Position numbers and translations under genes: made by a program. Below, in pieces: positions 36,452 through 46,553 of a DNA stretch of 51,113 nucleotides; positions within the stretch are counted from its first letter, which is position 1, and every line of letters starts with the position of its first letter. Origin of the DNA: Alphaproteobacteria bacterium (GTDB lineage: Bacteria > Pseudomonadota > Alphaproteobacteria > Rickettsiales > SXRF01); assembly GCA_025360345.1 (NCBI GenBank), contig JANYCJ010000170.1, forward strand, positions 1 through 51,113. Reading direction: 5' to 3'. The notes beneath the pieces were generated by a model that saw only the letters and a program-made list of their open reading frames with translations, had not been told where the DNA came from and did not search any database.

Positions 36452-36489
36452 TTGACAGACCTATAATATGTCTATATTTATGGACATAT
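36452..36489 (+). promoter_or_regulatory. ars promoter and ArsR operator
   Basis: TTGACA at 36452; 11-2-11 inverted repeat ATATGTCTATA-TT-TATGGACATAT overlapping the arsR ATG. Confidence 0.7.
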
Positions 36490-36823
36490 GAATACGGATA
36501 GCGCCCTCAAAGCCTTCTCTTCCCTCTCGCAGGACACGCGGCTACGCGCCCTGCGCATCCTCGTCGCCCATGGCCGTGAAGGCATGGCGGCAGGCCAGCT
36601 TGGCAAGCAGCTCGGCATCCCCCATAACACCCTTTCCTTCCATCTGACCCATCTCTGCGCCGCGGGCCTCGCCAAATCACGCAACCATGGCCGCAGCGTC
36701 ATCTACAGCGCCAATCTCGATGCCCTGCAGGCGCTGGTGCGTTTCCTGCTCAAGGATTGCTGCCTGCTGGATAAATCCACCTGCTCCGGTGTTGAGCAAT
36801 TGATGAAAGCCTGCGCATGTTAA
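36488..36823 (+). CDS. arsR: ArsR/SmtB-family repressor
   Basis: F.SLSQ.TRL...R.LV..G.EG..AG.L...L..P..TLSFHL..L..AGL, GRS..Y.AN, FL..DCC. Confidence 0.9.
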   Translation: MNTDSALKAFSSLSQDTRLRALRILVAHGREGMAAGQLGKQLGIPHNTLSFHLTHLCAAGLAKSRNHGRSVIYSANLDALQALVRFLLKDCCLLDKSTCSGVEQLMKACAC

Positions 36824-37284
36824 ACGTCTTGTTCCTCTGCACCGGAAACTCCTGCCGCAGCATCATGGCTGAAGCCCTCCTGAAGCATCATGGCGGTGGC
36901 AGGTTCCGCGCCTTCAGCGCCGGCAGCTTTCCCTCCGGCACTGTCCACCCCCAAAGCCTCGCCACGCTTCGCCGCCACGGCATTTCACCGCTGGGCTATG
37001 AAAGCAAATCATGGGACGTGTTTGAAGACCTCACCGAGCTGCATATCGTCATAACCGTGTGCGATAATGCCGCGGGCGAAACCTGCCCCCTCTTCCCCGG
37101 AACCCCCGTCAAAGCCCATTGGGGTGTGCCCGACCCCGCCCATCTGCACGGCAGTCCAGCCGAAATTGAAGCAGGCTTCGACCGTGTATTCGCCATGCTG
37201 GAGCGCCGCGTCGCCGCGCTGCTCGCCCTGCCCCCGGAAACACTCACCGCCCGCGAGTTGCAGGCCATTGGCCAGCTTCCATGA
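36817..37284 (+). CDS. arsC: Arsenate reductase ArsC (LMW-PTPase type)
   Basis: VLFLCTGNSCRS, ITVCDNAAGETCP, HWGVPDP. Confidence 0.92.
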   Translation: MLNVLFLCTGNSCRSIMAEALLKHHGGGRFRAFSAGSFPSGTVHPQSLATLRRHGISPLGYESKSWDVFEDLTELHIVITVCDNAAGETCPLFPGTPVKAHWGVPDPAHLHGSPAEIEAGFDRVFAMLERRVAALLALPPETLTARELQAIGQLP

Positions 37285-37967
37285 ACCGCCCCCTCTTTCA
37301 GAAATGCCTCGCAGAAGCCATCGGCACCGCCGCGCTGGTCTTCTTCGGCTGCGGCAGCCTCATGCTGGAAGCGCGCCTCCCCGGCAGCATCCCGGCAGGC
37401 GTCATCCCCTTGGTGTTCGGCGCGGCGGTCGCTACCATGATCTATACCGTGGGCCACATCTCCGGCGCGCATTTCAACCCCGCCGTCACGCTGGCTTTCG
37501 CCCTCGCCCGCCATTTCCCCGCCCGTCAGGTGCTTCCCTATGGGCTGGCGCAGTGCCTGGGCGGCCTCGCTGCCATGTCCCTGCTTTATGTCCTGATGCC
37601 CGCGGGCGCATCCTACGGCGCAACCCTGCCCACCGTAAGCCCCGCCCCCGCCTTCCTGTGGGAGGTGGTGCTCTCTGCCTTCCTCATGTTCGTCATCACC
37701 GCCGTGGCAACCGACACCCGCGCCGAGGGCATGATGGCAGGCATCGCCATTGGCGCCATCGTGGCCTTATGCGCGTGCTTGGGCGGCCCTTTCACCGGCG
37801 CCTCCATGAATCCCGCCCGCTCATTGGCGCCTGCCCTGTTTCAGGGCGCATTGGGCACAGTATGGATTTACCTGAGCGCCCCCTTCATCGGCGCGGCCAT
37901 CGGCATATTCGCCTACCAGCTGGTTCGCTGCGAAACACTCCCCGCAGGTGGCACCGGCTGCTGCTGA
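37281..37967 (+). CDS. MIP-family aquaporin, probable arsenite channel
   Basis: SGAHFNPAVT and GASMNPARS motifs; coupled to arsC by ATGA overlap. Confidence 0.9.
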   Translation: MNRPLFQKCLAEAIGTAALVFFGCGSLMLEARLPGSIPAGVIPLVFGAAVATMIYTVGHISGAHFNPAVTLAFALARHFPARQVLPYGLAQCLGGLAAMSLLYVLMPAGASYGATLPTVSPAPAFLWEVVLSAFLMFVITAVATDTRAEGMMAGIAIGAIVALCACLGGPFTGASMNPARSLAPALFQGALGTVWIYLSAPFIGAAIGIFAYQLVRCETLPAGGTGCC

Positions 37968-37969
37968 TC

Positions 37970-38230
37970 CTAGTGGATATTGAGCTCGCCCTTGCAGATC
38001 ACGAAAGACGCGGGCTTGATAAGCTCTGCGCTGGCGATTTTCACCGAATGCAGCTTGCCCTCGATTTCCTTCTCCCAGAAGCCGAGGAACTTGTGCAGCA
38101 CGGGAAATTTCGGCGCAATGTCCAGCTCCTGCCAGATATAGCTTTGCAGCAGCGACGGGTGGTCGGGCAGGTGGTATAAAATCTCTGCCGTGGTCAGCCG
38201 GTAATCCTGCAGCATCAGTCCAAAGTCCAT
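37970..38230 (-). CDS. usg: Usg family protein
   Basis: YRLTTAEILYHLPDHPSLLQSYIWQ..D.AP.FP.L..FL.FW..E.EG.LHSV. Confidence 0.85.
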   Translation of the reverse strand: MDFGLMLQDYRLTTAEILYHLPDHPSLLQSYIWQELDIAPKFPVLHKFLGFWEKEIEGKLHSVKIASAELIKPASFVICKGELNIH

Positions 38231-38468: not shown

Positions 38469-38544
38469 GGGCCGTTAGCTCAGTCGGTAGAGCGGTTGAC
38501 TCTTAATCAATAGGTCGCTGGTTCGATCCCAGCACGGCCCACCA
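38469..38544 (+). tRNA. tRNA-Lys(CTT)
   Basis: 76 nt, GGGCCGT acceptor stem, anticodon arm with CT-CTT-AA loop, GTTCGA T-loop, encoded CCA. Confidence 0.96.
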
Positions 38545-38587
38545 TCAAATTCAAAGACTTATAATTCCCGTCAAAAAACGAAAAATG

Positions 38588-38609
38588 GCGGGGGTTAGGC
38601 GGGGGTTAG
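38588..38609 (+). repeat. Putative integrase arm-binding sites
   Basis: Tandem GCGGGGGTTAG x2. GGGGTTAG recurs at 46368 and 46379, and inverted at 46416. Confidence 0.7.
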
Positions 38610-38749
38610 AATGCATCCGGCATATCTCCCAGGTTTTCATATCCATTTCGTCTGTTGCTCCCTGTCGATAATTATCTTGTCGCTTGTCGCGCCCATACCC
38701 CTCTGTTAGTGTCCGCAACGAAGTAGCCGCAGTGGGCTGCTTCCGGGTG

Positions 38750-38915
38750 TAGTGATCCGTCTAAGAACGTTCTATGCGTCACGTCACGACGCTGCTTTCC
38801 GTCCCTTTGGGCCGGGAGGCGGCGGCGAGGTGCTGTGCAAGCAGTGCTTTGGATGTCCAAACTCCGGCTAAAGGCCGTCGCAATCGTTTCTTAGCGATTC
38901 ACTAACTCCCGCGCC
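38750..38915 (+). ncRNA. Candidate pseudoknotted structured RNA, copy A (family not recognised)
   Basis: Same helix order and conserved loop as copy B, with compensatory changes; upstream TTGTCG-N17-TAGTGT promoter-like site at 38684-38712. Confidence 0.65.
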
Positions 38916-38968
38916 ACCAGAGGGTCATTCCCTTCTGGCTGGCTTCTTGTGCCAGAGAAGGAGGAATC

Positions 38969-39769
38969 ATGTCATTAAAGCCTTGCCGCGAATGCGGGGA
39001 ACAAATCAGCTCACATGCGCGTAATTGCCCTAAGTGTGGGATCAAAAAACTAATCAATAAAAAAACATTATGGCTTCCTCTCGGCCTAGGGCTTTTTACT
39101 ATACCCATCGCATATACCTTTGCCCCACCGGTTACGGTACTGCGAGTCAAAGCGGAATTAGGGTTTGCCGAAGCGCAATATCGCTTCAGCCGTATCTATC
39201 ATAATGGTGATGGCGTACCGCAAAATTCTGAAGAGTCATTCAAGTGGCTTCAAAAAGCCGGTGAAGGCGGTAATGCGGAGGCACAAAAAAGTCTTGGTTT
39301 TATCTATCGAACCGGGGAAGAAATACCAAACGGCAAAGAAGTGGTGCGCGACGATGTAAAAGCAAAAGAATGGTATAAAAAGGCTGCGGCTCTCGGCGAT
39401 ACGGAAGCGCAATTTATTCTGGGCACGGTCTATCACGAAAGCCAGAATTTACCTACTCGCGAGGGCAGCTGTGCCTGGACAGTTATAACCGAGATTGGAC
39501 ACAGGCTCCAGGACGGAGCAAATGGCTTTGGCATTCCCGGTTCTGGTTCCTCAGTTCAATATTCCAATGGCGGTTTTCAAGTATCATATGATGAGGTTGA
39601 TGCAGTTACACATTCTCGTACAGGCGACAAGGTAATTATTTGCTTAATTGAAGCACCAAGAAACTGCCCAGCGGGCGACATTAGAGGTTACGCTTATATT
39701 ACAACCAATCTTCGGATAATGGAGTCGTGGATAATGGGTGACTCTTCGCATAGCTGCGGAGGTGCTTAA
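38969..39769 (+). CDS. Zinc-ribbon / TM / Sel1-repeat protein with a Cys-containing C-terminal domain
   Basis: CRECG..IS..A..CPKCG, one TM segment, AEAQY...Y..G.GV.QN..E...W..KA.E.G..EAQ..LG repeats; AAGGAGG RBS. Confidence 0.8.
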   Translation: MSLKPCRECGEQISSHARNCPKCGIKKLINKKTLWLPLGLGLFTIPIAYTFAPPVTVLRVKAELGFAEAQYRFSRIYHNGDGVPQNSEESFKWLQKAGEGGNAEAQKSLGFIYRTGEEIPNGKEVVRDDVKAKEWYKKAAALGDTEAQFILGTVYHESQNLPTREGSCAWTVITEIGHRLQDGANGFGIPGSGSSVQYSNGGFQVSYDEVDAVTHSRTGDKVIICLIEAPRNCPAGDIRGYAYITTNLRIMESWIMGDSSHSCGGA

Positions 39770-39813
39770 TTGCATGGGAAAGGATTATCAATGTCGCTAA
39801 AATCATTCATCCA

Positions 39814-39950
39814 TATCGTAAGTGGTCCTAGTGCACCGCTAAGCACTCTTCTTCCGTTATGGTCGAGGAGGCGCATGTGTATGTTCAAGCCTCGGCTAAA
39901 GACATGCGCGACCTCTCTTACGATAGTTTTACAAACTCCTCGATAACCAT
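39814..39950 (+). ncRNA. Candidate pseudoknotted structured RNA, copy B
   Basis: Helices TATCGTAAG/CTTACGATA, GCGCATGT/ACATGCGC and TCGAGGAG/CTCCTCGA (crossing); loop ATGTTCAAGCCTCGGCTAAAG. Confidence 0.65.
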
Positions 39951-39965
39951 CGCGGGAGAATTCAT

Positions 39966-40694
39966 ATGCCTAAATCAAAATGTTATGCCCTGATATGGGC
40001 GCCACTATTTTTATGGGGATGTGTAAACCCACAGGTGGAGGAGTATAAGCAACAGTGTGTCGCTGGTGCGCGAGAAACAGAAAAGACAACCCAAGGTAAA
40101 TCGGTCGCTCAATGGTCAAAAACTTATACGGCAAGCCCAGACACTAAACCAGCATACATGCGCGGTTTATCTAATTCAGCGCGCTCATGCGCAGAGGTTT
40201 TGAACGCAAGCCCCGATTTCCAACACGAAGTTGGTTTTTTAACAGGCTTTGCCGACTCAATTGAGAAGGAATACATGGGAAAAGAAAAAGCTCGATTCTT
40301 TAAGAAAGCTGACGGAAGAAAATTCTGTACGGGTCAGCAGAAAAACCCCATGGATAGCGAAATAGTCAGTTTTTTCTATTATCCTAACGCTATGCCATTG
40401 GATGATTGCATTTACATGCTGGCACCCAATGCAATGCCGCTTACTGTTATGCAAACATTGCCAGAAGGCGTTTTAGTTACTGCGCGATGGACGCAGGTGC
40501 CTGGAAAAATTATGTTTATATACAATGATAACAAGAAAGAAAATATGCTCGCAGACGGTGCGGGTGTTGCTCCAGGATATTTTGTTTATGCTGGAAAGTA
40601 TCCTTATGTTAGTATCACCGGCCATCGGAGCGTTTATGCCTTTCGGCGCATTGATAATCCATCAGAAGGAAATGCATTTTTCAGCGGATATTAG
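39966..40694 (+). CDS. Hypothetical lipoprotein
   Basis: Basic N-terminus, hydrophobic stretch, LWG|C lipobox; GGAG RBS. Confidence 0.7.
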   Translation: MPKSKCYALIWAPLFLWGCVNPQVEEYKQQCVAGARETEKTTQGKSVAQWSKTYTASPDTKPAYMRGLSNSARSCAEVLNASPDFQHEVGFLTGFADSIEKEYMGKEKARFFKKADGRKFCTGQQKNPMDSEIVSFFYYPNAMPLDDCIYMLAPNAMPLTVMQTLPEGVLVTARWTQVPGKIMFIYNDNKKENMLADGAGVAPGYFVYAGKYPYVSITGHRSVYAFRRIDNPSEGNAFFSGY

Positions 40695-41107
40695 CTTTTT
40701 ATAAAAGCATTATAAGCAATTGTAGCTTCTTCCAGCGTTATGGGTTCTGGGTGAAGCGTTTTGCAAGGAGAGCATGCAATTGAGTTTTCGATCCGTCCTT
40801 CGGTATAATAGATAAGCATCTGTAGGTTACGGGCATTCATGCAGGTTAAAGCATTTTTGAGCATGCCTACCGCGATTAATCTTGCTGGCGTAGTCATACC
40901 GTTTCCCATCTTTTCCAATCGGCGAAATTCGGTAGGAAGGTCCATGGGGTCGATCATCTGTTTTGCTAGATATTTTAGCTCGGCGCGGATTAAATAAAAT
41001 TCTTTCTTACCTTTACGTCCAGCCGCGGCAGCGTCCATAGATCTGGCGCCAAAACGAGTATGTGTTCCAAATTCGGCAATGTTTGGATTCCCACGATGAC
41101 TGGGCAT
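40691..41107 (-). CDS. Hypothetical protein, possibly terminase small-subunit-like
   Basis: GNPN...TRFG...AAAAGRKG N-terminus reminiscent of phage TerS-type proteins; follows the replication genes. Confidence 0.4.
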   Translation of the reverse strand: MPSHRGNPNIAEFGTHTRFGARSMDAAAAGRKGKKEFYLIRAELKYLAKQMIDPMDLPTEFRRLEKMGNGMTTPARLIAVGMLKNALTCMNARNLQMLIYYTEGRIENSIACSPCKTLHPEPITLEEATIAYNAFIKS

Positions 41108-41287
41108 TTTCAACCGTTCCTTATTTGCATCATCAAGGAATTTATCAATTTACCTAGAAGTTTTGGGTCAGAGATGTGCTAAGGTAAGCAATAGCAGGCA
41201 GGTAGATAGACTCAGGATGCGTTACCTACTGTAATATTCCTATACCCTTTCACGAAGAAAGCCAAATCTACCGAAGAATTCCATGTT

Positions 41288-42448
41288 TTATGTATGGCAC
41301 TCTTCGATATTATTGGCATCCTTCGCAGGGAGTAGTATCCACACCCACCCCTGATCCATACCTTGTTTCTTTGCTTTGATGCCCAATTCATCCTTAGCAC
41401 GCTTGATAGTACGCTGCGCTATGCAGGCATCGGCAGCCTGCTTATAAACCTCCTTTGCGCTTACAGGCCCTTCCGCCAATACCTCGCGCAAGAAATTTAT
41501 TGCATCCTGTAAAGCACTCTTTTCTTCTTTACCGTTCCCGGCCTGTCCTTGCTCCGCCAGCACATCATTAGCTGTTTGGTGAACGATGGCATCTTCCCAA
41601 ACGATATAAGAGGTTTCAATACCGCTTTTCAATGTACAGGGCTTTATACTGAAGGCTAGGCCAGTGCGATCATTGCCGATATTATTCTTGATGGGCAGAA
41701 ATAGACGACGGGAGGGTTCTGCGCTATCGGCACCGACAAAGAATGCCGCACGCGCCGCCGCAACAAAAGCCAGGCTGCCGGTGACGCGCATCATTGCTTC
41801 ATTACCAGCAGATTTATTCAAATGGGAGATACATACCAGTGCTACATTGCGCCGCGCTGCCATTTCAGCCAAAGGGGCTAACATGCCACGGACATCAGCA
41901 GTTTTATGACTATCTACGCCGCCCATATAGGCTGTAATAGGGTCAATCACTACCAGAGCAATATCAGGTTTTTCTTCAAGCAATTGATCGAGCCGTGCTA
42001 TATCTTCCTGTAAAGTAAAGCTTCTTTGTTGCGCCTTGCCTTCCTTATCCAGGCTGGACACTGAATCGAGAATAAAAATACGTTTAGAATCAGCGCCAGC
42101 CGCATCCATTCGAGGTCGGATAGTATCAGCAGCATCATCTTCAGCACTGAGGAAGGCCACGTCACCTAACTCGCAATTACCACCATTAGCGGGCCATCCA
42201 CCACCCGTAGTAACAATAGCCGCAAGACTAGCTGTAAGCTGGCTTTTCCCTAAACCGGGATTTCCGGCAATCATGGTGAGTTTTCCACGAGCTATCATCC
42301 TCGGCCACAACCAGTAAACTGGCTTTGGCTGAATATCAGACATGCGACGATAGTTGATGCCAGATTTTCCCACGCTGGCATTTTTCTTGGTTGATGTTTC
42401 TTCCCACGCGCTATCTGCTGCATTAAATGCATTTTCAGGCTTAATCAT
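41288..42448 (-). CDS. AAA_25 / RepA-like helicase
   Basis: Walker A GNPGLGKS, SAEDD...TI.PR..AAGAD, Walker B LVVIDP, HLNK, GSLAFVAAAR; ATGA-coupled to the primase. Confidence 0.88.
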   Translation of the reverse strand: MIKPENAFNAADSAWEETSTKKNASVGKSGINYRRMSDIQPKPVYWLWPRMIARGKLTMIAGNPGLGKSQLTASLAAIVTTGGGWPANGGNCELGDVAFLSAEDDAADTIRPRMDAAGADSKRIFILDSVSSLDKEGKAQQRSFTLQEDIARLDQLLEEKPDIALVVIDPITAYMGGVDSHKTADVRGMLAPLAEMAARRNVALVCISHLNKSAGNEAMMRVTGSLAFVAAARAAFFVGADSAEPSRRLFLPIKNNIGNDRTGLAFSIKPCTLKSGIETSYIVWEDAIVHQTANDVLAEQGQAGNGKEEKSALQDAINFLREVLAEGPVSAKEVYKQAADACIAQRTIKRAKDELGIKAKKQGMDQGWVWILLPAKDANNIEECHT

Positions 42449-43338
42449 ACGGTATACCTTTTGGCAATATCTGCCCAATCGAGACCGAACTTAGATGGCG
42501 TCACAATCCGAACTTCATGCCCCGCAGTGTGCCAGCGTTTTTCGCACCGTTGAGCGGCTATTAACCCTGCCTTATCGTAGTCAGCAAAAATGGTAAGACT
42601 TTCAATTCCCGGCAACACCGGAAAGTTGGCAATATTGCTAGCATCGACCGCTGCCCATACTGGACCCCAACCCGCTGCCATGACCGCCAAAGCGGTTTCA
42701 ATACCTTCTCCAATACCTAGCCCCAGCAACACATTAACATCATCAGTAAGGCGTATCACACCCCCTGTCTTGCGGTGTCCTTTCAGCAGCACCTTAGGGC
42801 GTTCCACCGGCGCTTTACCGCTACCGTCTTCTAGAAGCAGTGTAAAATGAAGGGAGAGGGGTTTTCCTGTTAAAGCGTCCGTGATACGCGCCACCATTGC
42901 CGGATACCATGATTTTTTCGCAGGCAAAAATCGCAGGTCAGCATGGTTTGGAATTAAGCAGCCTCGGCTACGCAAATAACTTTCTGCCGGGGTTCCGATG
43001 ATAGGTATGGTTGATCGCCAGTTATGATCGGCACGCTCAGACCATTCAAGCGAATTGCCACGGATGGTCGCTTCATTTGTTTTGAGTTGTTTGCCAACTA
43101 TATGAAGCCGCTTCATATTAGCACCGTCAATTAATCCCATTCGGCGCAGTGCTGTAAACACGTCACGCGCATCACAACCCGCGAAGCAATGCACCAGCAG
43201 ACGTCCACCGTCTCCATCGGCGACACTTAACGACGGGTTATGATCATCATGGGCAGGACAAGGTATCAACCAACCATTGCCGTTTTTTATGCCGCCAAGA
43301 ACGCGGGCTAAGGCTTCCGCAATGACCTTGTAATCCAT
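42445..43338 (-). CDS. Primase-like protein (zinc finger + Toprim)
   Basis: CPAHDDHNPSLS...HCFAGC zinc finger, YLRSRG, IGEGIETALA, IFADYD, DWAD. Confidence 0.88.
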   Translation of the reverse strand: MDYKVIAEALARVLGGIKNGNGWLIPCPAHDDHNPSLSVADGDGGRLLVHCFAGCDARDVFTALRRMGLIDGANMKRLHIVGKQLKTNEATIRGNSLEWSERADHNWRSTIPIIGTPAESYLRSRGCLIPNHADLRFLPAKKSWYPAMVARITDALTGKPLSLHFTLLLEDGSGKAPVERPKVLLKGHRKTGGVIRLTDDVNVLLGLGIGEGIETALAVMAAGWGPVWAAVDASNIANFPVLPGIESLTIFADYDKAGLIAAQRCEKRWHTAGHEVRIVTPSKFGLDWADIAKRYTV

Positions 43339-43346
43339 GGCTAGCC

Positions 43347-43568
43347 TTACTCTGCTGCGCTTATAGTACGTGATGTAAGGAAGCGTTCTACCGCTTCACG
43401 CTTATAACGCACTAAACGGCCTACCTTGATATATTCCAGCTCAGGGTATCGTTTGGTTGAGCGCCATACCTCTAAAGTATGGGCGCTTTTCAGGTCAAGT
43501 AAACGCGCCGTTTCTTCAGAGGTAAGAAGGTTTCTATCGGTGAAATTTGTAGAAGTTATTGTAGCCAT
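43347..43568 (-). CDS. AlpA/excisionase-like HTH protein
   Basis: LLT..E.A..L.....TL..WR......L.YIKVGRLVRY....V..FL; AAGGA RBS. Confidence 0.85.
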   Translation of the reverse strand: MATITSTNFTDRNLLTSEETARLLDLKSAHTLEVWRSTKRYPELEYIKVGRLVRYKREAVERFLTSRTISAAE

Positions 43569-43737
43569 GATGAACATCCTTTGGTTAGGTTAAAGATGTT
43601 CAGATAATATGCATAAAATCTAGAGTGTCAGCCCCGCCAGCGGTTCAAGGGATACCCCTCGGAGGGGGCGGAGGGGACAGGCGACGACAACCACCGTTAT
43701 CATTAATCGATACTGCTGCTGCCTTTAGTAAAAGCAT

Positions 43738-44199
43738 TTATGCAGGTGGAGTGGCATCCTTATTGCGGTCAATGTATGCAATTACACGCCGACATAGCGC
43801 AACGAATTCATCATGATTCAAATCATTTTTTGCATCATTCGTGCGCCAGCCACAGATTTTAAAATCTGCTTCGCCGAGGCCGTCGCCGACATGATCGACA
43901 GTTGGTAGCAGAGCTAGCGATTTCTTATAATGACGGCCATGAGCTTTTGATTCATCGTTATTATATTGACGAATTAAAGACCAATCGAGATTTTCGCCGG
44001 TGTAATAATCAGCGCCATCAGAGACAACAACAGCCGTATGAATTGCTATTTTATAGGACTCATTGGTCGCTGTCACATTGCCGCGCTTCCGATCACGTTT
44101 CACATGAGCAACGGCTTTCCTATGAAGCCATTTTTCATAATTATCCTGCGTTAGCAATGTAGATAGAAATGTGGGAAGTTTATATTTACGTTCAGTCAT
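43738..44199 (-). CDS. Hypothetical protein with HNH-like nuclease motif
   Basis: DYYTGE.L...PTVDH...ICGWRTNDAKND....EF...C. Confidence 0.55.
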   Translation of the reverse strand: MTERKYKLPTFLSTLLTQDNYEKWLHRKAVAHVKRDRKRGNVTATNESYKIAIHTAVVVSDGADYYTGENLDWSLIRQYNNDESKAHGRHYKKSLALLPTVDHVGDGLGEADFKICGWRTNDAKNDLNHDEFVALCRRVIAYIDRNKDATPPA

Positions 44200-44225
44200 T
44201 ATTAGTCATTCACCTCATCCCACAG

Positions 44226-44915
44226 CTATTTACTATTGCCGCCTTGCCTTGCAACGGGACAGCGAATAATTGTATCCATCATATCGGCGCGTGATTTACT
44301 GAATCCGGCTATACCGCGCTTTTTTGCCTCTTCCATAAGCCAATTTACAACCGAATTTTTAAACGGAGCCTTGCTAGCATCAGGCTTGGTTAGATCGTAA
44401 TCTTTCCAAAATTTTTCTACCGCATCATGCATCAGTTCCATATCCGGCGTACAGTATGAGAGTTTTGCTTTATGTTGTTTTGGAACGTTTTGATTTATAG
44501 TGACTTCGTGTTGTTTGATAATCTCGGCTAGCGCAGGCGGAATAGTAAAGTGCTTGCTTTTTGCCCACCCAATCCATTTCTGGCGATGGCATTTAAGATT
44601 GTGATATTGGCCTAACCAATCAATTTCACGATGGCCTAACTCATTCATAGCTATAGTGGTAAAATCGATGTAGCTCTGCCGAAGTTGAGTGTCGCTAATA
44701 TATTTTAACTGTGTGCCGCCACAATCTAATGGCTCGAACCCATGTATCAGCGCTGCCGCTTCCCATAATGTCCAATCATTTTTTCTTGTCCAGAAATCGT
44801 AACGAGGGTTAAGATTTTCGGGAGGCACGTTTTTAGCCGTGAGATGAGCATTCTGTAGCAATTCAAAATAATTTATATCTGAAGTGGGGGTATCTTTTTT
44901 GGGTTTGTTGCTCAT
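44226..44915 (-). CDS. Hypothetical protein
   Basis: 229-aa ORF coupled to the integrase stop; WTLWEAAALIHG.EP motif seen in island proteins. Confidence 0.65.
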   Translation of the reverse strand: MSNKPKKDTPTSDINYFELLQNAHLTAKNVPPENLNPRYDFWTRKNDWTLWEAAALIHGFEPLDCGGTQLKYISDTQLRQSYIDFTTIAMNELGHREIDWLGQYHNLKCHRQKWIGWAKSKHFTIPPALAEIIKQHEVTINQNVPKQHKAKLSYCTPDMELMHDAVEKFWKDYDLTKPDASKAPFKNSVVNWLMEEAKKRGIAGFSKSRADMMDTIIRCPVARQGGNSK

Positions 44916-46348
44916 TTTTTCCTCATCGCAATTACTTCCGCCGATGGCATCACACCCGCCGCGCCGAATATGGCGGTGAGGGCTTTATTCCGCGCCTGTA
45001 TCACAGGGTCTTGTTGCAGGCGTGAATAGACAGCGGTAGCAGTTGCCGATTTATGATTAAGCTGCCGTCCGATAATAACTGTGGATGCGCCTGTGCCTGC
45101 CATCCAGCTGCCGAGTGTGCGCCGCAGGTCATGGATACGGAGATTACGTAGGCCGAGGGCAGTGATATCCAGTTTCAGCTTATTAGCTATATCCCGGTAT
45201 TCTGATATTGCCTGCCCCAGCCTGCCGATAGCTTCGATTTTAGCTTCCTGTATTTTTTCTATGTCCCATTTGTTAGTCTCAGCGATTAGCCCGATAAGCT
45301 GAAATAGCTCTGTCCGCGCTAATATGCGTTCCCAGCCCTTGCGGGGTTCGACAAGATGCCCGGCGCTGCCAGCGCTGGGGAATACCCATTTGCTGGCATT
45401 AGCGGCTAACTTTACCTCATATTCCCCGGCATCTTTATCGGCTGCCCTGGCCTTGTATTCTTTGATTTTGGCTTTACGGTTTTCCAGTATCCGCAGCATG
45501 GCGCCCTGTGTGTCATCTAGCGATATAATTTGCGGAGTGCCGTTCTTGGTTTCCGGTATGCGCCATTCTTTGCGCTCGAAGCTGATCTCATCCCAACGCA
45601 TTGCCATCAAATTGGATCGCCGGACGCCGGTCAGTAACAATAGCATGAAATAATCCTGTAATAATTCGCTGGGCTCATGCGCCAATGACTCGAAAAATAC
45701 AGGCAATTCCTCCGATTGAATGAAGCGGTCGCGGGATTTCTCTGGAAATTTACGAATGCCCTGAGCAGGGTTTTGCTTGTTCCATAACCCCCATTCGATG
45801 GCTCGCCCGAATACGCCGCTGATAAGCGCCAATACGCGATTGGCAATGATAGGGCGGGTCTTACCAAGATCGGAATGCAAATTCGCTATATCTGTCTTTG
45901 TGATACGGGACAGCTTGCGCGAACTGATTTTGGTATAATCCTGAATATAGCGCCGGTAGTTGTGATGATCGGCTTCCCAGCTCTTTTTATGCGGCTTTGC
46001 CCAACGTTCAAGATATACGTCAAAAAGTTGCTTGAACGTCATTTCCGCTTTATCTGCCCGTATAGCATCATTGGGGTTTTCTTTGTTAGCGATGGCCGCA
46101 TTGATCGTCGTCGCTTTTTCCCGCGCTTTTTCTATGGATAAGTCAGGAAACCGCCCCAGCGTCACCCGTTCCGGCTTACCTTCAGTGGAAACCCACCGAT
46201 AAACGCTGAAAGTCTTAACGCCATTGCCGGTGACGCGTAATTGCAGGCCGTTAATCTTGGAATCATGATAGGTATCACGATCCCCCATTTTCGGCAGGGG
46301 TAACCCCTCTATATTACTCTTATTAAAAGTGATAATCCTCTTTGCCAT
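44912..46348 (-). CDS. int: Tyrosine integrase (P4-like, N-terminal arm-binding domain)
   Basis: D....GL.LRV...G.K.F...R.TLG.FP.LS...AR arm domain; catalytic R (TGVRR), K (TKNG), HDLRR, LNH, Y. Confidence 0.93.
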   Translation of the reverse strand: MAKRIITFNKSNIEGLPLPKMGDRDTYHDSKINGLQLRVTGNGVKTFSVYRWVSTEGKPERVTLGRFPDLSIEKAREKATTINAAIANKENPNDAIRADKAEMTFKQLFDVYLERWAKPHKKSWEADHHNYRRYIQDYTKISSRKLSRITKTDIANLHSDLGKTRPIIANRVLALISGVFGRAIEWGLWNKQNPAQGIRKFPEKSRDRFIQSEELPVFFESLAHEPSELLQDYFMLLLLTGVRRSNLMAMRWDEISFERKEWRIPETKNGTPQIISLDDTQGAMLRILENRKAKIKEYKARAADKDAGEYEVKLAANASKWVFPSAGSAGHLVEPRKGWERILARTELFQLIGLIAETNKWDIEKIQEAKIEAIGRLGQAISEYRDIANKLKLDITALGLRNLRIHDLRRTLGSWMAGTGASTVIIGRQLNHKSATATAVYSRLQQDPVIQARNKALTAIFGAAGVMPSAEVIAMRKK

Positions 46349-46505
46349 ACCAGCCCTTTCATCTATGGGGGTTAGTTCGGGGTTAGGAGGAGTGTGCAGT
46401 TTCAATAATTTTTACCTAACCCCATAGAGGTTTTGATAGCGGTAAGATATAGTTCTGTAAAGTATTATTGAGATTGATAAATCAACGTGCCGCATCTATA
46501 ACAGA

Positions 46506-46553
46506 GACTCTTAATCAATAGGTCGCTGGTTCGATCCCAGCACGGCCCACCAT
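46506..46553 (+). repeat. att site: duplicated 3' part of tRNA-Lys
   Basis: GACTCTTAATCAATAGGTCGCTGGTTCGATCCCAGCACGGCCCACCAT, identical to 38498-38545. Confidence 0.95.

What the first reader, a model, noticed from the sequence alone, without database searches (positions are those of the whole stretch)
38684..40694. Cassette-like array: promoter - [element + envelope gene] - [element + envelope gene]
Seen: one promoter-like site (TTGTCG-N17-TAGTGT, 38684-38712), element A, a membrane-anchored Sel1 protein, element B, then a lipoprotein. All lie on the strand opposite the satellite core. Element B ends about 5 nt before the GGAG RBS; element A is followed by two short hairpins and AAGGAGG. Inference: the element may define exchangeable gene units (a folded-ssDNA recombination site analogous to integron attC, which it does not otherwise resemble), process a polycistronic mRNA, or control translation of each cargo gene. 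This could be an undescribed cargo capture/expression system.
Basis: inference. Interest (0 to 1): 0.75.

Follow-up and report, generated by a model that had tools for sequence, protein, structure and literature searches.

The report
Folded leader RNAs before cargo genes
Each of the two envelope-protein genes at one end of this small integrated element is preceded by a copy of a large folded RNA leader, a long uncatalogued relative of the little-understood sRNA-Xcc1, which most likely switches its gene on or off and is not a DNA recombination site.

Summary
Two diverged copies of one structured element (A about 38720-38951, B about 39814-39949, + strand) each precede an envelope-protein gene. 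They lie at the tRNA-Lys end of an 8-kb integrase/primase island (38545-46552).

The element is RNA, not an attC-like DNA site. On 25 homologues, 92.8% of cells in six helices are paired and 28 of 39 pairs show compensatory changes. There are G-U pairs on the sense strand and two pseudoknot-type long-range helices with locus-specific sequence.

It is not island-specific. A covariance model finds it in 66 of 151 genomes of the order (up to 25 copies) and in 24 of 151 sampled alphaproteobacterial genomes. It always points at an ORF that starts a median 46 nt downstream. The genes are diverse: lipoproteins, pilins, nucleases, recombinases.

The core is a sub-threshold relative of Rfam sRNA-Xcc1 (RF02221). 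That RNA is reported upstream of genes in integron cassettes, phages and islands.

Best reading: a two-state cis-acting leader. P1/P2 compete with an alternative hairpin, and the choice affects an overlapping terminator and the Shine-Dalgarno sequence. The trigger is unknown.

Earlier notes of this scan describe the same family on other DNA (95 notes).

The parts
38469..38544 (+). tRNA-Lys(CTT). Its last 23 nt (38522-38544) form the left copy of the island's direct repeat (attL).
   Evidence: ARAGORN; Rfam tRNA 74.3 bits; 23-nt exact repeat
38684..38712 (+). Promoter-like site TTGTCG-N17-TAGTGT for leader A. It is weak by the E. coli consensus but lies at the family-typical distance.
   Evidence: Sequence; not reported by the consensus scan; TTG enrichment at -77..-70 from the P5 strand in 88 homologues
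38720..38743 (+). P0: 5'-terminal hairpin of leader A. A hairpin directly upstream of Pa is visible by eye in the homologues shown; its sequence varies between them.
   Evidence: RNAfold MFE; hairpins seen by eye in homologues; not tallied
38744..38769 (+). 5' domain of leader A. It holds the Pa hairpin (38744-38759), whose loop TAGTGA (38750-38755) is the P6 5' strand, and the barcode strand X CTAAGAACG (38761-38769), which is the P5 5' strand.
   Evidence: Cognate versus non-cognate complementarity; pair counts for P5 and P6
38776..38801 (+). Pseudoknot hairpin S2 (GCGTC/GACGC, 38776-38792) and the linker CGCTGCTTTCCG (38790-38801). The linker can pair with the 5' strands of P1 and P2 to form the alternative (Alt) hairpin.
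   Evidence: S1 pair counts; Alt duplex of -23.8 kcal/mol in A; the MFE of A uses it
38808..38916 (+). Core of leader A (the sRNA-Xcc1-like domain). P1 is 38808-38818 with 38906-38916. P2 is 38819-38826 with 38874-38881. There is an extra insert hairpin at 38829-38850. The invariant loop UGUCCAA-P3-UAAAG is at 38854-38873. X' is 38885-38894, L' is 38899-38904, and CCA is at 38917-38919.
   Evidence: R1 77.3 bits; pair counts; alignments
38913..38951 (+). Imperfect terminator-like hairpin with a weak T tail (TTCTTGTG). Its 5' arm overlaps the outer part of the P1 3' strand.
   Evidence: Sequence and fold. It is conserved with a better T tail in L157. Terminator-like sites occur in 51 of 89 homologues; A itself did not pass that ungapped criterion.
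38969..39769 (+). Cargo gene 1: zinc-ribbon / transmembrane / Sel1-repeat protein, 266 aa. Its SD, AAGGAGG, is at 38958-38964.
   Evidence: ORF list; Pfam; PHROGs, unknown function only
39814..39949 (+). Leader B, a truncated copy without promoter, P0, Pa or P6. X is 39814-39822. S2 is 39830-39847. P1 is 39860-39870 with 39936-39946. P2 is 39871-39878 with 39902-39909. The core loop is 39882-39901, X' is 39917-39925, and CCA is at 39947-39949. No terminator follows.
   Evidence: R1 73.0 bits at 39860-39946; alignment; 82.8% identity over 128 nt to L226
39954..40694 (+). SD GGGAG (39954-39958) and cargo gene 2, a lipoprotein-like protein of 242 aa (39966-40694). In the predicted MFE the SD pairs with the P1 3' strand of B (39936-39939).
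   Evidence: ORF list; no family in Pfam, PHROGs or PADLOC; SD unpaired probability 0.003
40691..46405 (-). Island backbone: a 140-aa protein of unknown function, an AAA_25 helicase (41288-42478), a DUF7146/Toprim primase (42445-43338), two proteins of unknown function, and a tyrosine integrase (44912-46405).
   Evidence: Pfam; PHROGs
46530..46552 (+). Right copy of the 23-nt direct repeat of the tRNA 3' end (attR). It sets the island as 38545-46552.
   Evidence: Exact second match, 0 expected; the GC drop to 0.43-0.50 ends near here

Best explanation
Elements A and B are two copies of a large cis-acting 5'-leader RNA. A full copy is about 200-230 nt; B is a shorter internal copy. The family is a long alphaproteobacterial branch of the sRNA-Xcc1 family.

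Transcription probably starts at the weak promoter at 38684-38712 and runs through A, gene 1, B and gene 2.

Each leader can adopt two states.
- State 1: the closing stem P1 and helix P2 form. The 5' domain may dock on the core through the locus-specific helices P5 and P6.
- State 2: the conserved linker pairs with the 5' strands of P1 and P2 (the Alt hairpin). The terminator can then form, or the freed P1 3' strand can cover the GGGAG ribosome site, so the gene is silent.

Shown here: the fold and its covariation, the fixed orientation and spacing to the ORF, the overlap with the terminator, and the complementarity to the SD.

Inferred: that the two states alternate, which state is 'on', and what flips them. 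Candidates are co-transcriptional kinetics, a shared protein or ligand that binds the invariant loops, or RNase P cleavage at the tRNA-like P1+CCA end, as recalled for the phage c4 and P4 CI RNAs.
For: Real RNA structure. On 25 homologues, 92.8% of cells are paired, against 74.9% in shuffles and about 40% when the partner columns are slid. 28 of 39 pairs carry compensatory changes. The covariation score is 0.530 against 0.187, with 0 of 500 shuffles as high.

The P5 barcode helix is locus-specific. The longest cognate complement averages 8.1 nt (91 of 94 are 7 nt or more). Non-cognate pairs average 5.3 nt (1129 of 8742 are 7 nt or more).

Leader geometry. In 83 copies with a Shine-Dalgarno-preceded ORF, the start codon lies a median 46 nt after the model end (interquartile range 41-52.5).

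Terminator. A terminator-like hairpin lies between core and start codon in 51 of 89 copies, against 5 of 89 shuffles. Its stem starts a median 6 nt before the model end, so it overlaps P1.

Anti-SD. The best TIR match to the P1 3' strand is GGGAG, GGGAGT or GGGAGTT in 30 of 83 copies. The mean is 5.52 nt, against 4.14 for a reversed control.

Alt hairpin. The cognate duplex averages -19.6 kcal/mol, against -17.05 for non-cognate pairs and -14.3 for a reversed control. A gives -23.8 and B gives -15.7.

Window copies. In B's predicted MFE the SD is paired to the P1 3' strand (unpaired probability 0.003) and Alt forms. B has neither promoter nor terminator and sits in a 196-nt gap inside the operon.

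Family context. The family is found in 66 of 151 genomes of the order and 24 of 151 of the class. Rfam sRNA-Xcc1 matches the core at 27.8-38.6 bits in 7 of 9 homologous loci. Passages read in papers place sRNA-Xcc1 upstream of symE in Xanthomonas cassettes (10.1101/2025.06.18.660453) and upstream of an ORF6N gene in APSE phages. They also report five copies about 380 nt apart on one strand in a Xylella island (PMC12189769).
Against: There is no expression data. No RNA run was listed for this DNA, so the transcript ends, the promoter and the switching are all predictions.

Cognate preference for the Alt hairpin is modest. The cognate is in the best 10% for only 22 of 93 copies, so part of its stability may be a by-product of the conserved G+C-rich strands.

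The SD/P1-3' complementarity is generic (non-cognate mean 5.11 against cognate 5.52). It could partly reflect that P1 simply contains an SD-like word.

Only 51 of 89 copies have a terminator by my criterion. A's T tail is weak and A did not pass that criterion.

P5 and P6 cross P1, and only 2 nt link L' to P1. Whether all these helices coexist or alternate is not settled.

The downstream genes give no clue to a signal: 48 of 69 have no Pfam family.

The literature treats sRNA-Xcc1 as a trans-acting sRNA. An 88-nt species was mapped in X. campestris (PMC2996969).
Confidence: 0.65

Rival explanations
1. Stand-alone small RNA genes. Each element is a trans-acting sRNA, as sRNA-Xcc1 is described, with its own promoter and terminator. 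The neighbouring envelope genes are expressed independently or only by leakage.
For: - An 88-nt sRNA-Xcc1 with mapped ends and a Northern band of about 100 nt was reported in X. campestris (PMC2996969).
- 51 of 89 copies end in a terminator-like hairpin.
- A promoter-like TTG peak lies upstream.
- The A element is 93.1% identical over 216 nt to one in L157, while both flanks are unrelated. This behaves like a self-contained module.
- Canonical Xcc1 copies carry a loop complementary to a target site.
Against: - The start codon follows at a tightly fixed distance (interquartile range 41-52.5 nt), and orientation is always towards the ORF.
- B has no promoter and no terminator, and ends 7 nt before the SD.
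- 38 of 89 copies lack a terminator.
- In the alphaproteobacterial branch the barcode strands pair only with the RNA's own 5' domain. No cognate downstream target was found: 8 of 93 against 590 of 8556 for non-cognate.
Confidence: 0.15
2. A true metabolite or second-messenger riboswitch. The invariant loops form a ligand pocket, and ligand binding stabilises P1/P2. The result is a regulon of surface, nuclease and mobile-element genes that answers to one small molecule.
For: - There are invariant unpaired nucleotides (UAUGUCCA...UAAAG, GGAGG) inside covarying helices.
- There is an expression platform with a terminator overlapping P1, and an alternative hairpin.
- Some genomes hold many copies: 25, 15 and 12.
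Against: - The downstream genes share no pathway or transporter that would point to a ligand.
- The locus-specific barcode helices P5 and P6 are unusual for riboswitches. As recalled, they are typical of antisense or immunity RNAs such as c4 and CI.
- Canonical relatives pair with their own translation start region, which is an RNA-RNA mechanism.
Confidence: 0.12
3. A DNA-level element. This is the reader's attC-like folded single-strand recombination site, or another mobile-DNA end, that delimits exchangeable element-plus-gene cassettes.
For: - Homology between the window and L157 or L140 starts and stops sharply at the element's ends. The cargo genes differ: Sel1 protein, lipoprotein, superinfection-immunity protein.
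- 6 of 89 fetched stretches hold two same-strand copies 0.13-1.2 kb apart.
- Relatives occur in integron cassettes and islands.
- The cargo looks like typical cassette content: small unknown proteins, nucleases, a toxin.
Against: - G-U pairs lie on the sense strand, and the minus strand is not structured.
- The fold is pseudoknotted and not palindromic.
- P3 has a UNCG-type loop in several homologues (UUCG in L009, UCCG in window A and L003; CUCG in window B is not UNCG), and a terminator and RBS coupling are present.
- There is no integron integrase, and no recombinase is shared between loci. The neighbours are tyrosine integrase, serine recombinase or none.
- 83 of 89 stretches have one copy.
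- In Xanthomonas the RNA is cargo inside ordinary attC-bounded cassettes.
Confidence: 0.04

Closest known systems
sRNA-Xcc1 (Rfam RF02221). An 88-nt RNA of Xanthomonas campestris, also annotated in integron cassettes, Xylella islands and APSE phages.
   Same: - The core architecture matches: a closing stem, P2, a small P3 hairpin in a purine-rich loop, and a 3' segment presented before the closing strand. cmscan aligns model positions 1-87 onto exactly this domain in 7 of 9 homologous loci.
- My model finds 13 of 25 canonical loci at the same place.
- Both lie on mobile DNA, in multiple copies, upstream of a gene and co-oriented with it.
- Canonical copies also have the upstream Pa/X domain paired to the core. 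The longest upstream-to-core complement averages 7.88 nt for cognate pairs against 5.82 for non-cognate.
   Different: - Scores are below Rfam's cut-off: 27.8-38.6 bits against 53. The window's own copies give no hit even at E<=10, and the own genome gives none at E<=0.01.
- The Rfam model and the papers I read cover only the core of about 87 nt and call it a trans-acting sRNA. Here the unit is a leader of about 200 nt with a pseudoknotted 5' domain.
- In canonical copies the barcode loop matches the start region of the downstream gene (14 of 24 against 17 of 552). In the alphaproteobacterial branch it does not; there the closing stem itself carries an SD/anti-SD pair.
Phage P1/P7 c4 antisense RNA and satellite P4 CI RNA (Rfam RF01695 C4, RF01394 isrK).
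   Same: This is a working likeness, recalled from Citron & Schuster 1990 and later work and not read here. In those systems a short RNA embedded in the leader of the operon it controls carries specificity segments. The segments are complementary to one site upstream and one site downstream on the same transcript, and the RNA is released by RNase P from a tRNA-like stem ending in CCA.

Here there are two barcode segments (L', X') in the core and matching L and X upstream. Downstream copies flank the SD in canonical Xcc1. CCA follows the closing stem in 81 of 94 copies. The host element here is a P4-style integrase/primase island.
   Different: - There is no covariance-model match to C4 or isrK at E<=10 in the window or at E<=1 in 9 homologous loci.
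- The downstream target sites are missing in the alphaproteobacterial branch.
- Processing is untested.
- The RNA precedes envelope and accessory genes, not an antirepressor or replication operon.
Integron attC sites.
   Same: A repeated structured element lies next to each of several small, unrelated, horizontally moving genes. Relatives are found in integron arrays.
   Different: The element lies upstream of the gene with RBS coupling. It folds on the sense strand with G-U pairs. It is not an imperfect palindrome. No IntI is present. Most loci hold a single copy.
Terminator/anti-terminator and SD-sequestering leader RNAs (riboswitches, attenuators).
   Same: It has a conserved folded sensor domain, a closing stem that competes with a terminator and with an SD-masking pairing, and an alternative hairpin.
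   Different: No ligand or coherent regulon can be inferred. The locus-specific long-range helices have no counterpart in known riboswitch classes (recalled).

Membership tests
sRNA-Xcc1 (RF02221) | Score at or above the curated gathering threshold (53 bits) | tested here: not met
   The window gives no RF02221 hit at E<=10. The own genome gives 0 matches at E<=0.01. Better-scoring homologues reach 27.8-38.6 bits. Same-family genomes reach 27.8-46.1 bits.
sRNA-Xcc1 (RF02221) | Core secondary structure: a closing stem enclosing P2/P3 and a 3' hairpin or segment | tested here: met
   cmscan aligns model positions 1-87 end to end on the P1..P1' domain. P1, P2 and P3 are 94.7%, 99.5% and 98.7% paired, and 7 of 10 P1 pairs and 7 of 8 P2 pairs show compensatory changes. 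R1 reciprocally hits 13 of 25 canonical loci at 16.5-36.8 bits.
sRNA-Xcc1 (RF02221) | Loop segment complementary to the translation start region of the adjacent downstream gene (found here for canonical members) | tested here: not met
   Canonical members: 14 of 24 cognate pairs are 7 nt or more, against 17 of 552 non-cognate. Alphaproteobacterial branch including the window: mean 4.55 against 4.32, no signal; over 140 nt downstream, 8 of 93 against 590 of 8556.
sRNA-Xcc1 (RF02221) | Location on mobile DNA, upstream of a gene and co-oriented with it | tested here: met
   The window's copies lie in an island bounded by 23-nt repeats.
Integron attC | Integron integrase (IntI) and attI nearby | tested here: not met
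   TIGR02249 scores at best 75.2 bits against a cut-off of 265 in the own assembly, which is 80% complete. The island's integrase is of the P4 type with an Arm-DNA-bind_3 domain.
Integron attC | A single imperfect palindrome that folds as ssDNA (bottom strand) | tested here: not met
   The structure has six helices, including crossing ones. A G-U pair on the sense strand is found in 13 of 25 sequences at one P2 position. The minus-strand folds have z = 0.42 and -1.20.
Integron attC | Occurs in arrays, one per cassette | tested here: not met
   6 of 89 fetched stretches of 1.2-6 kb (plus the whole 51-kb window) hold two copies, and none holds more. The copies in genomes lie scattered over many contigs.
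C4 / CI antisense RNAs (RF01695, RF01394) | Covariance-model similarity | tested here: not met
   No C4 or isrK match at E<=10 in 38540-40100, nor at E<=1 in 9 homologous loci.
C4 / CI antisense RNAs (RF01695, RF01394) | Specificity segments complementary to sites upstream and downstream on the same transcript (feature recalled) | tested here: inconclusive
   The upstream sites are present and covary. The downstream sites are present only in canonical Xcc1 and not in this branch.
C4 / CI antisense RNAs (RF01695, RF01394) | Release by RNase P from a tRNA-like stem plus CCA (feature recalled) | not testable with these tools
   Only the sequence feature could be checked: CCA lies within 6 nt of the model end in 81 of 94 copies.
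Riboswitch | Aptamer with an expression platform that forms mutually exclusive structures | tested here: inconclusive
   The terminator overlaps P1 in 51 of 89 copies. The Alt hairpin is stable but has only a modest cognate preference.
Riboswitch | Specific small-molecule binding and a coherent regulon | tested here: not met
   The regulon is incoherent. 21 of 69 downstream proteins have a Pfam hit, spread over 13 kinds of domain (14 Pfam families). Ligand binding cannot be tested here.

The most novel reading that the evidence does not exclude
The long leader is a portable, barcoded expression module of mobile DNA in Pseudomonadota. It would be a c4/CI-like self-addressed riboregulator that travels as a discrete unit of about 215 nt. 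Whatever accessory gene lands behind it (exclusion lipoproteins, nucleases, toxins, recombinases, pilins) would come under one shared, still unknown signal. Its sharp homology boundaries would also serve as the recombination joints at which cargo genes are swapped between islands. If so, sRNA-Xcc1 as catalogued is only the processed 3' half of this larger RNA.
Probability: 0.2. Interest if true: 0.85.

Novelty: new variant of a known kind. Interest (0 to 1): 0.58.

Why it matters
A complex folded RNA of about 200 nt sits in front of surface, nuclease, pilin and recombinase genes. It is found in 66 of 151 genomes of one alphaproteobacterial order (up to 25 copies) and in 24 of 151 genomes sampled across the class. 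It is absent from Rfam as such and from the papers I could search.

It links three poorly connected things: the little-understood sRNA-Xcc1 of plant pathogens and integron cassettes; the classic c4/CI immunity RNAs of P1 and P4, by architecture only; and the regulation of accessory 'moron' genes on small integrative elements.

If the two-state model holds, it defines a large post-transcriptional regulon of horizontally acquired envelope and defence genes in Micavibrio-like bacteria. It would also give a testable reason why sRNA-Xcc1 always lies just upstream of a gene.

For genome annotation, it explains many long 'empty' 5' regions and offers a marker for cargo genes on islands.

Tried and rejected
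- Rfam at gathering thresholds over the whole window found only the tRNA. Rfam at E<=10 on 38540-40100 gave only chance miRNA and histone hits.
- An exact-motif scan of viral contigs gave 4 loci. Two were real (L003 and L005, the same sequence type) and two were coding look-alikes. A relaxed viral scan gave 117 or more stretches, of which only one (L017, on the same contig as L003) had the P2 pairing. The element is therefore rare in IMG/VR.
- A pattern search in 44 genomes of the family gave only one true extra hit, G013. The covariance model later found more.
I used an 85-position core model and tested the 5' domain with pair counts and cognate/non-cognate scripts.
- The first pair count used one bracket type for crossing helices and mis-paired them. 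It was redone correctly.
- Sequencing runs: no RNA holder was listed.
- The consensus promoter scan found 0 sites. It is tuned to E. coli-type promoters.
- PADLOC gave no hit for the two cargo proteins or the three unknown island proteins. PHROGs gave only unknown-function families for the Sel1 protein.
- A search for a cognate downstream target of the barcode strands in the alphaproteobacterial branch found no signal.
- attC or integron reading: rejected.
- Chen et al. 2011 (RNA Biol 8:947), the main sRNA-Xcc1 paper, is not held. I know only its title, from the reference lists seen.
- Searches for 'Micavibrio' with 'noncoding RNA' or 'riboswitch', and passages of PMC3189940, gave no description of this RNA.
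- Searches for 'sRNA-Xcc1' (24 papers) and for 'sRNA-Xcc1' with 'C4 antisense' (3 papers) gave no paper that, in the parts I saw, describes the long 5' domain or a leader role.
- Supplementary files were not consulted.


Full report
WHAT IS THERE

The window holds a tRNA-Lys(CTT) at 38469-38544. The last 23 nt of that tRNA recur exactly at 46530-46552, where 0 matches are expected by chance. Between the two repeats the G+C content falls from about 0.6 to 0.43-0.50.

The 8-kb stretch 38545-46552 is therefore an integrated element. On its minus strand it carries an AAA_25 helicase, a DUF7146/Toprim primase, three small proteins of unknown function and a tyrosine integrase. On its plus strand, next to the tRNA, are the two genes of the finding:
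- a zinc-ribbon / transmembrane / Sel1 protein (38969-39769);
- a lipoprotein-like protein with no family in Pfam, PHROGs or PADLOC (39966-40694).

THE REPEAT IS REAL

Each gene is preceded by a copy of one element. The 21-nt core ATGTYCAARCYYCGGCTAAAG occurs twice in the window, with 0.01 expected. It also occurs only twice in the 2.49-Mb assembly, which is 80% complete. The sense strands of the two copies fold better than shuffles (z = -3.3, -2.4 and -2.2). Their complements do not (z = 0.42 and -1.2).

RELATIVES AND STRUCTURE

I collected relatives from four sources.
- Viral contigs: 4 loci, of which 2 were true.
- One genome per species: 10 of 10 loci were true. All are alphaproteobacterial MAGs by their record titles, for example Micavibrio sp..
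- Metagenomes: 17 of 21 loci were true; L141, L142, L150 and L156 were chance hits.
- One genome of the window's own family.

From 5' to 3' the element has:
- a variable 5' hairpin, P0;
- a hairpin Pa (consensus GGGGCUUnnnAACCCC);
- an 8-10-nt strand X;
- a small pseudoknot (S1, S2);
- a conserved linker (GCCGCUUCUCGG);
- a 10-bp closing stem P1, whose 5' strand is SD-like (GGGAGG) and whose 3' strand is anti-SD-like (AACUCCC);
- an 8-bp helix P2;
- the invariant loop UAUGUCCA-[P3]-UAAAG;
- after P2, the strands X' and L', which pair back to X (helix P5) and to the loop of Pa (helix P6).

On a 25-sequence MAFFT alignment, 92.8% of cells in these helices are paired. The figure is 74.9% in column shuffles and 37-43% when the partner columns are slid. 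28 of 39 pairs show changes on both sides. The covariation score is 0.530 against 0.187, and 0 of 500 shuffles reach it. P5 and P6 cross P1, so the fold is pseudoknotted; my first count mis-nested them. One P2 pair is G-U in 13 of 25 sequences, which fixes the folded strand as the sense strand.

The sequence of P5 is specific to each locus. The longest perfect complement between a copy's own upstream region and its own X' region averages 8.1 nt, and 91 of 94 copies reach 7 nt or more. For mismatched pairs of copies the mean is 5.3 nt, and 1129 of 8742 reach 7 nt or more.

In the window, copy A has all parts plus an extra hairpin inserted after P2. That insert is shared with L140, L145 and L157. 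Copy B keeps X, S1/S2, the linker and P1-P3, but lacks P0, Pa and P6.

DISTRIBUTION

I therefore built an 85-position model of the P1..P1' core (R1).
- It finds the two window copies and nothing else in the own genome.
- It finds the RNA in 66 of 151 genomes sampled from the window's order, covering 53 of 105 genera. Some genomes have 25, 15 or 12 matches.
- It finds the RNA in 24 of 151 genomes sampled one per family across the class. That tally includes one genome flagged unpublished; without it the count is 23 of 150.

The element is thus a widespread chromosomal and mobile-element RNA, not a feature of this island.

In 89 fetched stretches it matched 95 times (94 distinct cores, one of them the window). 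Six stretches hold two same-strand copies 135-1186 nt apart: the window, L147, L166, L169, L192 and L216. The other 83 hold one copy each.

WHAT FOLLOWS THE ELEMENT

In 83 copies with an SD-preceded ORF, the start codon lies a median 46 nt after the model end (interquartile range 41-52.5).

I scanned 69 of the 88 downstream proteins against Pfam. I left out near-duplicate paralogues and the window's two proteins, which were already scanned. Of the 69, 48 have no family and 21 do. The families are:
- prepilin-type N_methyl (5);
- DUF2726 nuclease-like (3);
- GIY-YIG (3);
- one each of large serine recombinase, Mrr_cat, superinfection immunity protein, RTX repeats, OMP beta-barrel, SecF, PAP2, zinc ribbon, DUF4379/CapR and DUF2569.

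By eye, many of the rest start with signal-peptide or lipoprotein sequences.

A terminator-like hairpin with a T run lies between core and start codon in 51 of 89 copies, against 5 of 89 shuffled controls. Its stem begins a median 6 nt before the model end, so it overlaps the outer pairs of P1.

The part of the translation start region that best matches the P1 3' strand is GGGAG, GGGAGT or GGGAGTT in 30 of 83 copies. The mean match is 5.52 nt, against 4.14 for a reversed control. It is 5.11 for non-cognate copies, so this pairing is generic and not locus-specific.

The conserved linker is complementary to the 5' strands of P1 and P2. The cognate duplex averages -19.6 kcal/mol, against -17.05 for non-cognate pairs and -14.3 for a reversed control. 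The cognate ranks in the best tenth for 22 of 93 copies.

For the window itself:
- A's linker duplex is -23.8 kcal/mol and is used in A's minimum-energy fold.
- B's minimum-energy fold has the linker hairpin, and has the SD (39955-39958) paired to the P1 3' strand, with an unpaired probability of 0.003.

PROMOTER

Across 88 homologues, however, TTG is enriched in a single zone 70-77 nt upstream of strand X. That zone has 39 occurrences in one 5-nt bin, against 4-21 in the others. A's TTG is at -77. Good TTGACN-N16-17-TAnnnT sites are visible there in L138, L009 and others. B has none and begins 45 nt after the stop codon of gene 1. One promoter serving two leader-gene units is therefore a fair reading, though still a prediction.

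RELATION TO KNOWN RNAs

The window copies match nothing in Rfam. Nine better-scoring homologous loci, however, gave consistent sub-threshold matches to sRNA-Xcc1 (RF02221). Seven of the nine loci matched at 27.8-38.6 bits against a cut-off of 53. The alignments run end to end on exactly the P1..P1' core.

RF02221 itself is common elsewhere in Pseudomonadota: 24 of 151 sampled genomes score over the cut-off. My model hits 13 of 25 such canonical loci at the same position with 16.5-36.8 bits. I therefore regard the window's RNA as a divergent branch of the same superfamily, but not as a member by Rfam's criterion.

Passages I read in papers say the following.
- sRNA-Xcc1 is an 88-nt RNA with mapped ends in X. 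campestris 8004 (PMC2996969).
- The most widespread Xanthomonas integron cassette carries symE with sRNA-Xcc1 upstream of it, and both are oriented against the cassette promoter (bioRxiv 10.1101/2025.06.18.660453).
- Xylella fastidiosa Temecula1 has seven copies. Five of them lie about 380 nt apart on one strand of a genomic island (PMC12189769).
- Some APSE phages carry a copy upstream of an ORF6N gene (bioRxiv 10.1101/2020.03.17.996009).

The key paper, Chen et al. 2011, is not held.

Looking at the 25 canonical loci myself, I found that they too have the upstream Pa/X domain. The upstream-to-core complement averages 7.88 nt for cognate pairs against 5.82 for non-cognate. In addition, their X' loop is complementary to the stretch between the SD and the start codon of their own downstream gene: 14 of 24 cognate pairs reach 7 nt or more, against 17 of 552 non-cognate. 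The alphaproteobacterial branch lacks this downstream target.

This layout has specificity segments in an embedded RNA, matching sites upstream, and (in canonical members) matching sites at the ribosome site downstream. As I recall it, this is the layout of the P1/P7 c4 and P4 CI immunity RNAs, which RNase P releases from a tRNA-like stem ending in CCA. Here CCA follows the closing stem in 81 of 94 copies. No covariance-model similarity to C4 or isrK was found, so this is a working likeness and not membership.

MODULARITY

Copy A (38736-38948) is 93.1% identical over 216 nt to an element in metagenome locus L157, and 77.7% identical over 215 nt to one in L140. Homology begins at Pa and stops just after the terminator hairpin. 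Both flanks are unrelated. The cargo genes differ: a lipoprotein in L157 and a superinfection-immunity protein in L140.

Copy B is 82.8% identical over 128 nt to a copy in another genome (L226). The window's lipoprotein has no relative among the fetched loci.

So the RNA module and its cargo have separate histories.

VERDICT

The attC-like site does not fit: the sense strand folds with G-U pairs, the fold is not a palindrome, there is no IntI, and most loci hold a single copy. Processing remains possible.

I commit to a two-state cis-acting leader, in which P1/P2 compete with the linker hairpin and the outcome is read out through the overlapping terminator and the SD. My confidence is about 0.65 for the leader role and lower for the direction of the switch. 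The trigger is unknown.

Earlier notes of this scan (95 notes in at least 84 genomes) describe the same family on other DNA. They reach the same closest relative. I read them only after my own Rfam result. Two of them prompted the c4 comparison.

Noticed in passing
window 38522-38544 and 46530-46552: Exact 23-nt direct repeats of the tRNA-Lys 3' end bound an 8.0-kb integrative element. The integrase lies at the end far from the intact tRNA, and the cargo genes lie next to the tRNA.
   Followed up: partly
window 36488-37967: An arsenic-resistance-like cluster lies just upstream of the island. It comprises an ArsR-like ORF 36488-36823, an ArsC-like ORF 36817-37284 and a MIP/aquaglyceroporin 37281-37967 (Pfam MIP E=3.3e-53). 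A Usg-family gene follows at 37970-38230 on the minus strand. The ArsR and ArsC labels come from reading the translations only.
   Followed up: no
window 1-38000: GC skew is strongly and uniformly negative (-0.1 to -0.33 per kb) across the host part of the window, although most long ORFs are on the + strand.
   Followed up: no
L237-L261 (canonical sRNA-Xcc1 loci): In canonical sRNA-Xcc1 the hairpin loop after P2 is complementary to the 7-10 nt between the SD and the start codon of the gene just downstream. The same word recurs upstream of the RNA. This suggests a self-addressed, c4-like riboregulator, not a free trans-acting sRNA.
   Followed up: partly
L003, L165, L176, L186: The leader sits directly in front of a large serine recombinase gene (Resolvase + Recombinase domains) in several genomes and one viral contig.
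   Followed up: no
G105 loci L197-L203 and L162: One genome has 25 model matches. Several precede paralogous proteins of about 160 to over 420 aa (some cut off at the stretch end) with a prepilin N-methylation motif that lies 45-65 residues from the predicted start.
   Followed up: no
L157 2419-2634 versus window 38736-38948: The leader modules are 93% identical while both flanks are unrelated and the cargo genes differ. This implies recent exchange of the RNA module or of its neighbours.
   Followed up: partly
end of P1 in 94 homologues; window 38917-38919 and 39947-39949: CCA directly follows the closing stem in 81 of 94 copies. Together with the stem this resembles a tRNA acceptor end and so a possible RNase P substrate.
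   Followed up: partly
L169 (= L131) 1501-1588 and 1636-1720; L166 1218-1302 and 1501-1585: Two loci carry tandem copies only 135-283 nt apart with no ORF between them. The second or first copy scores low (35-39 bits). In L169 the pair precedes secF.
   Followed up: no
window 38676-38689: The -35-like hexamer TTGTCG is itself duplicated in tandem (TTGTCGCTTGTCG).
   Followed up: no
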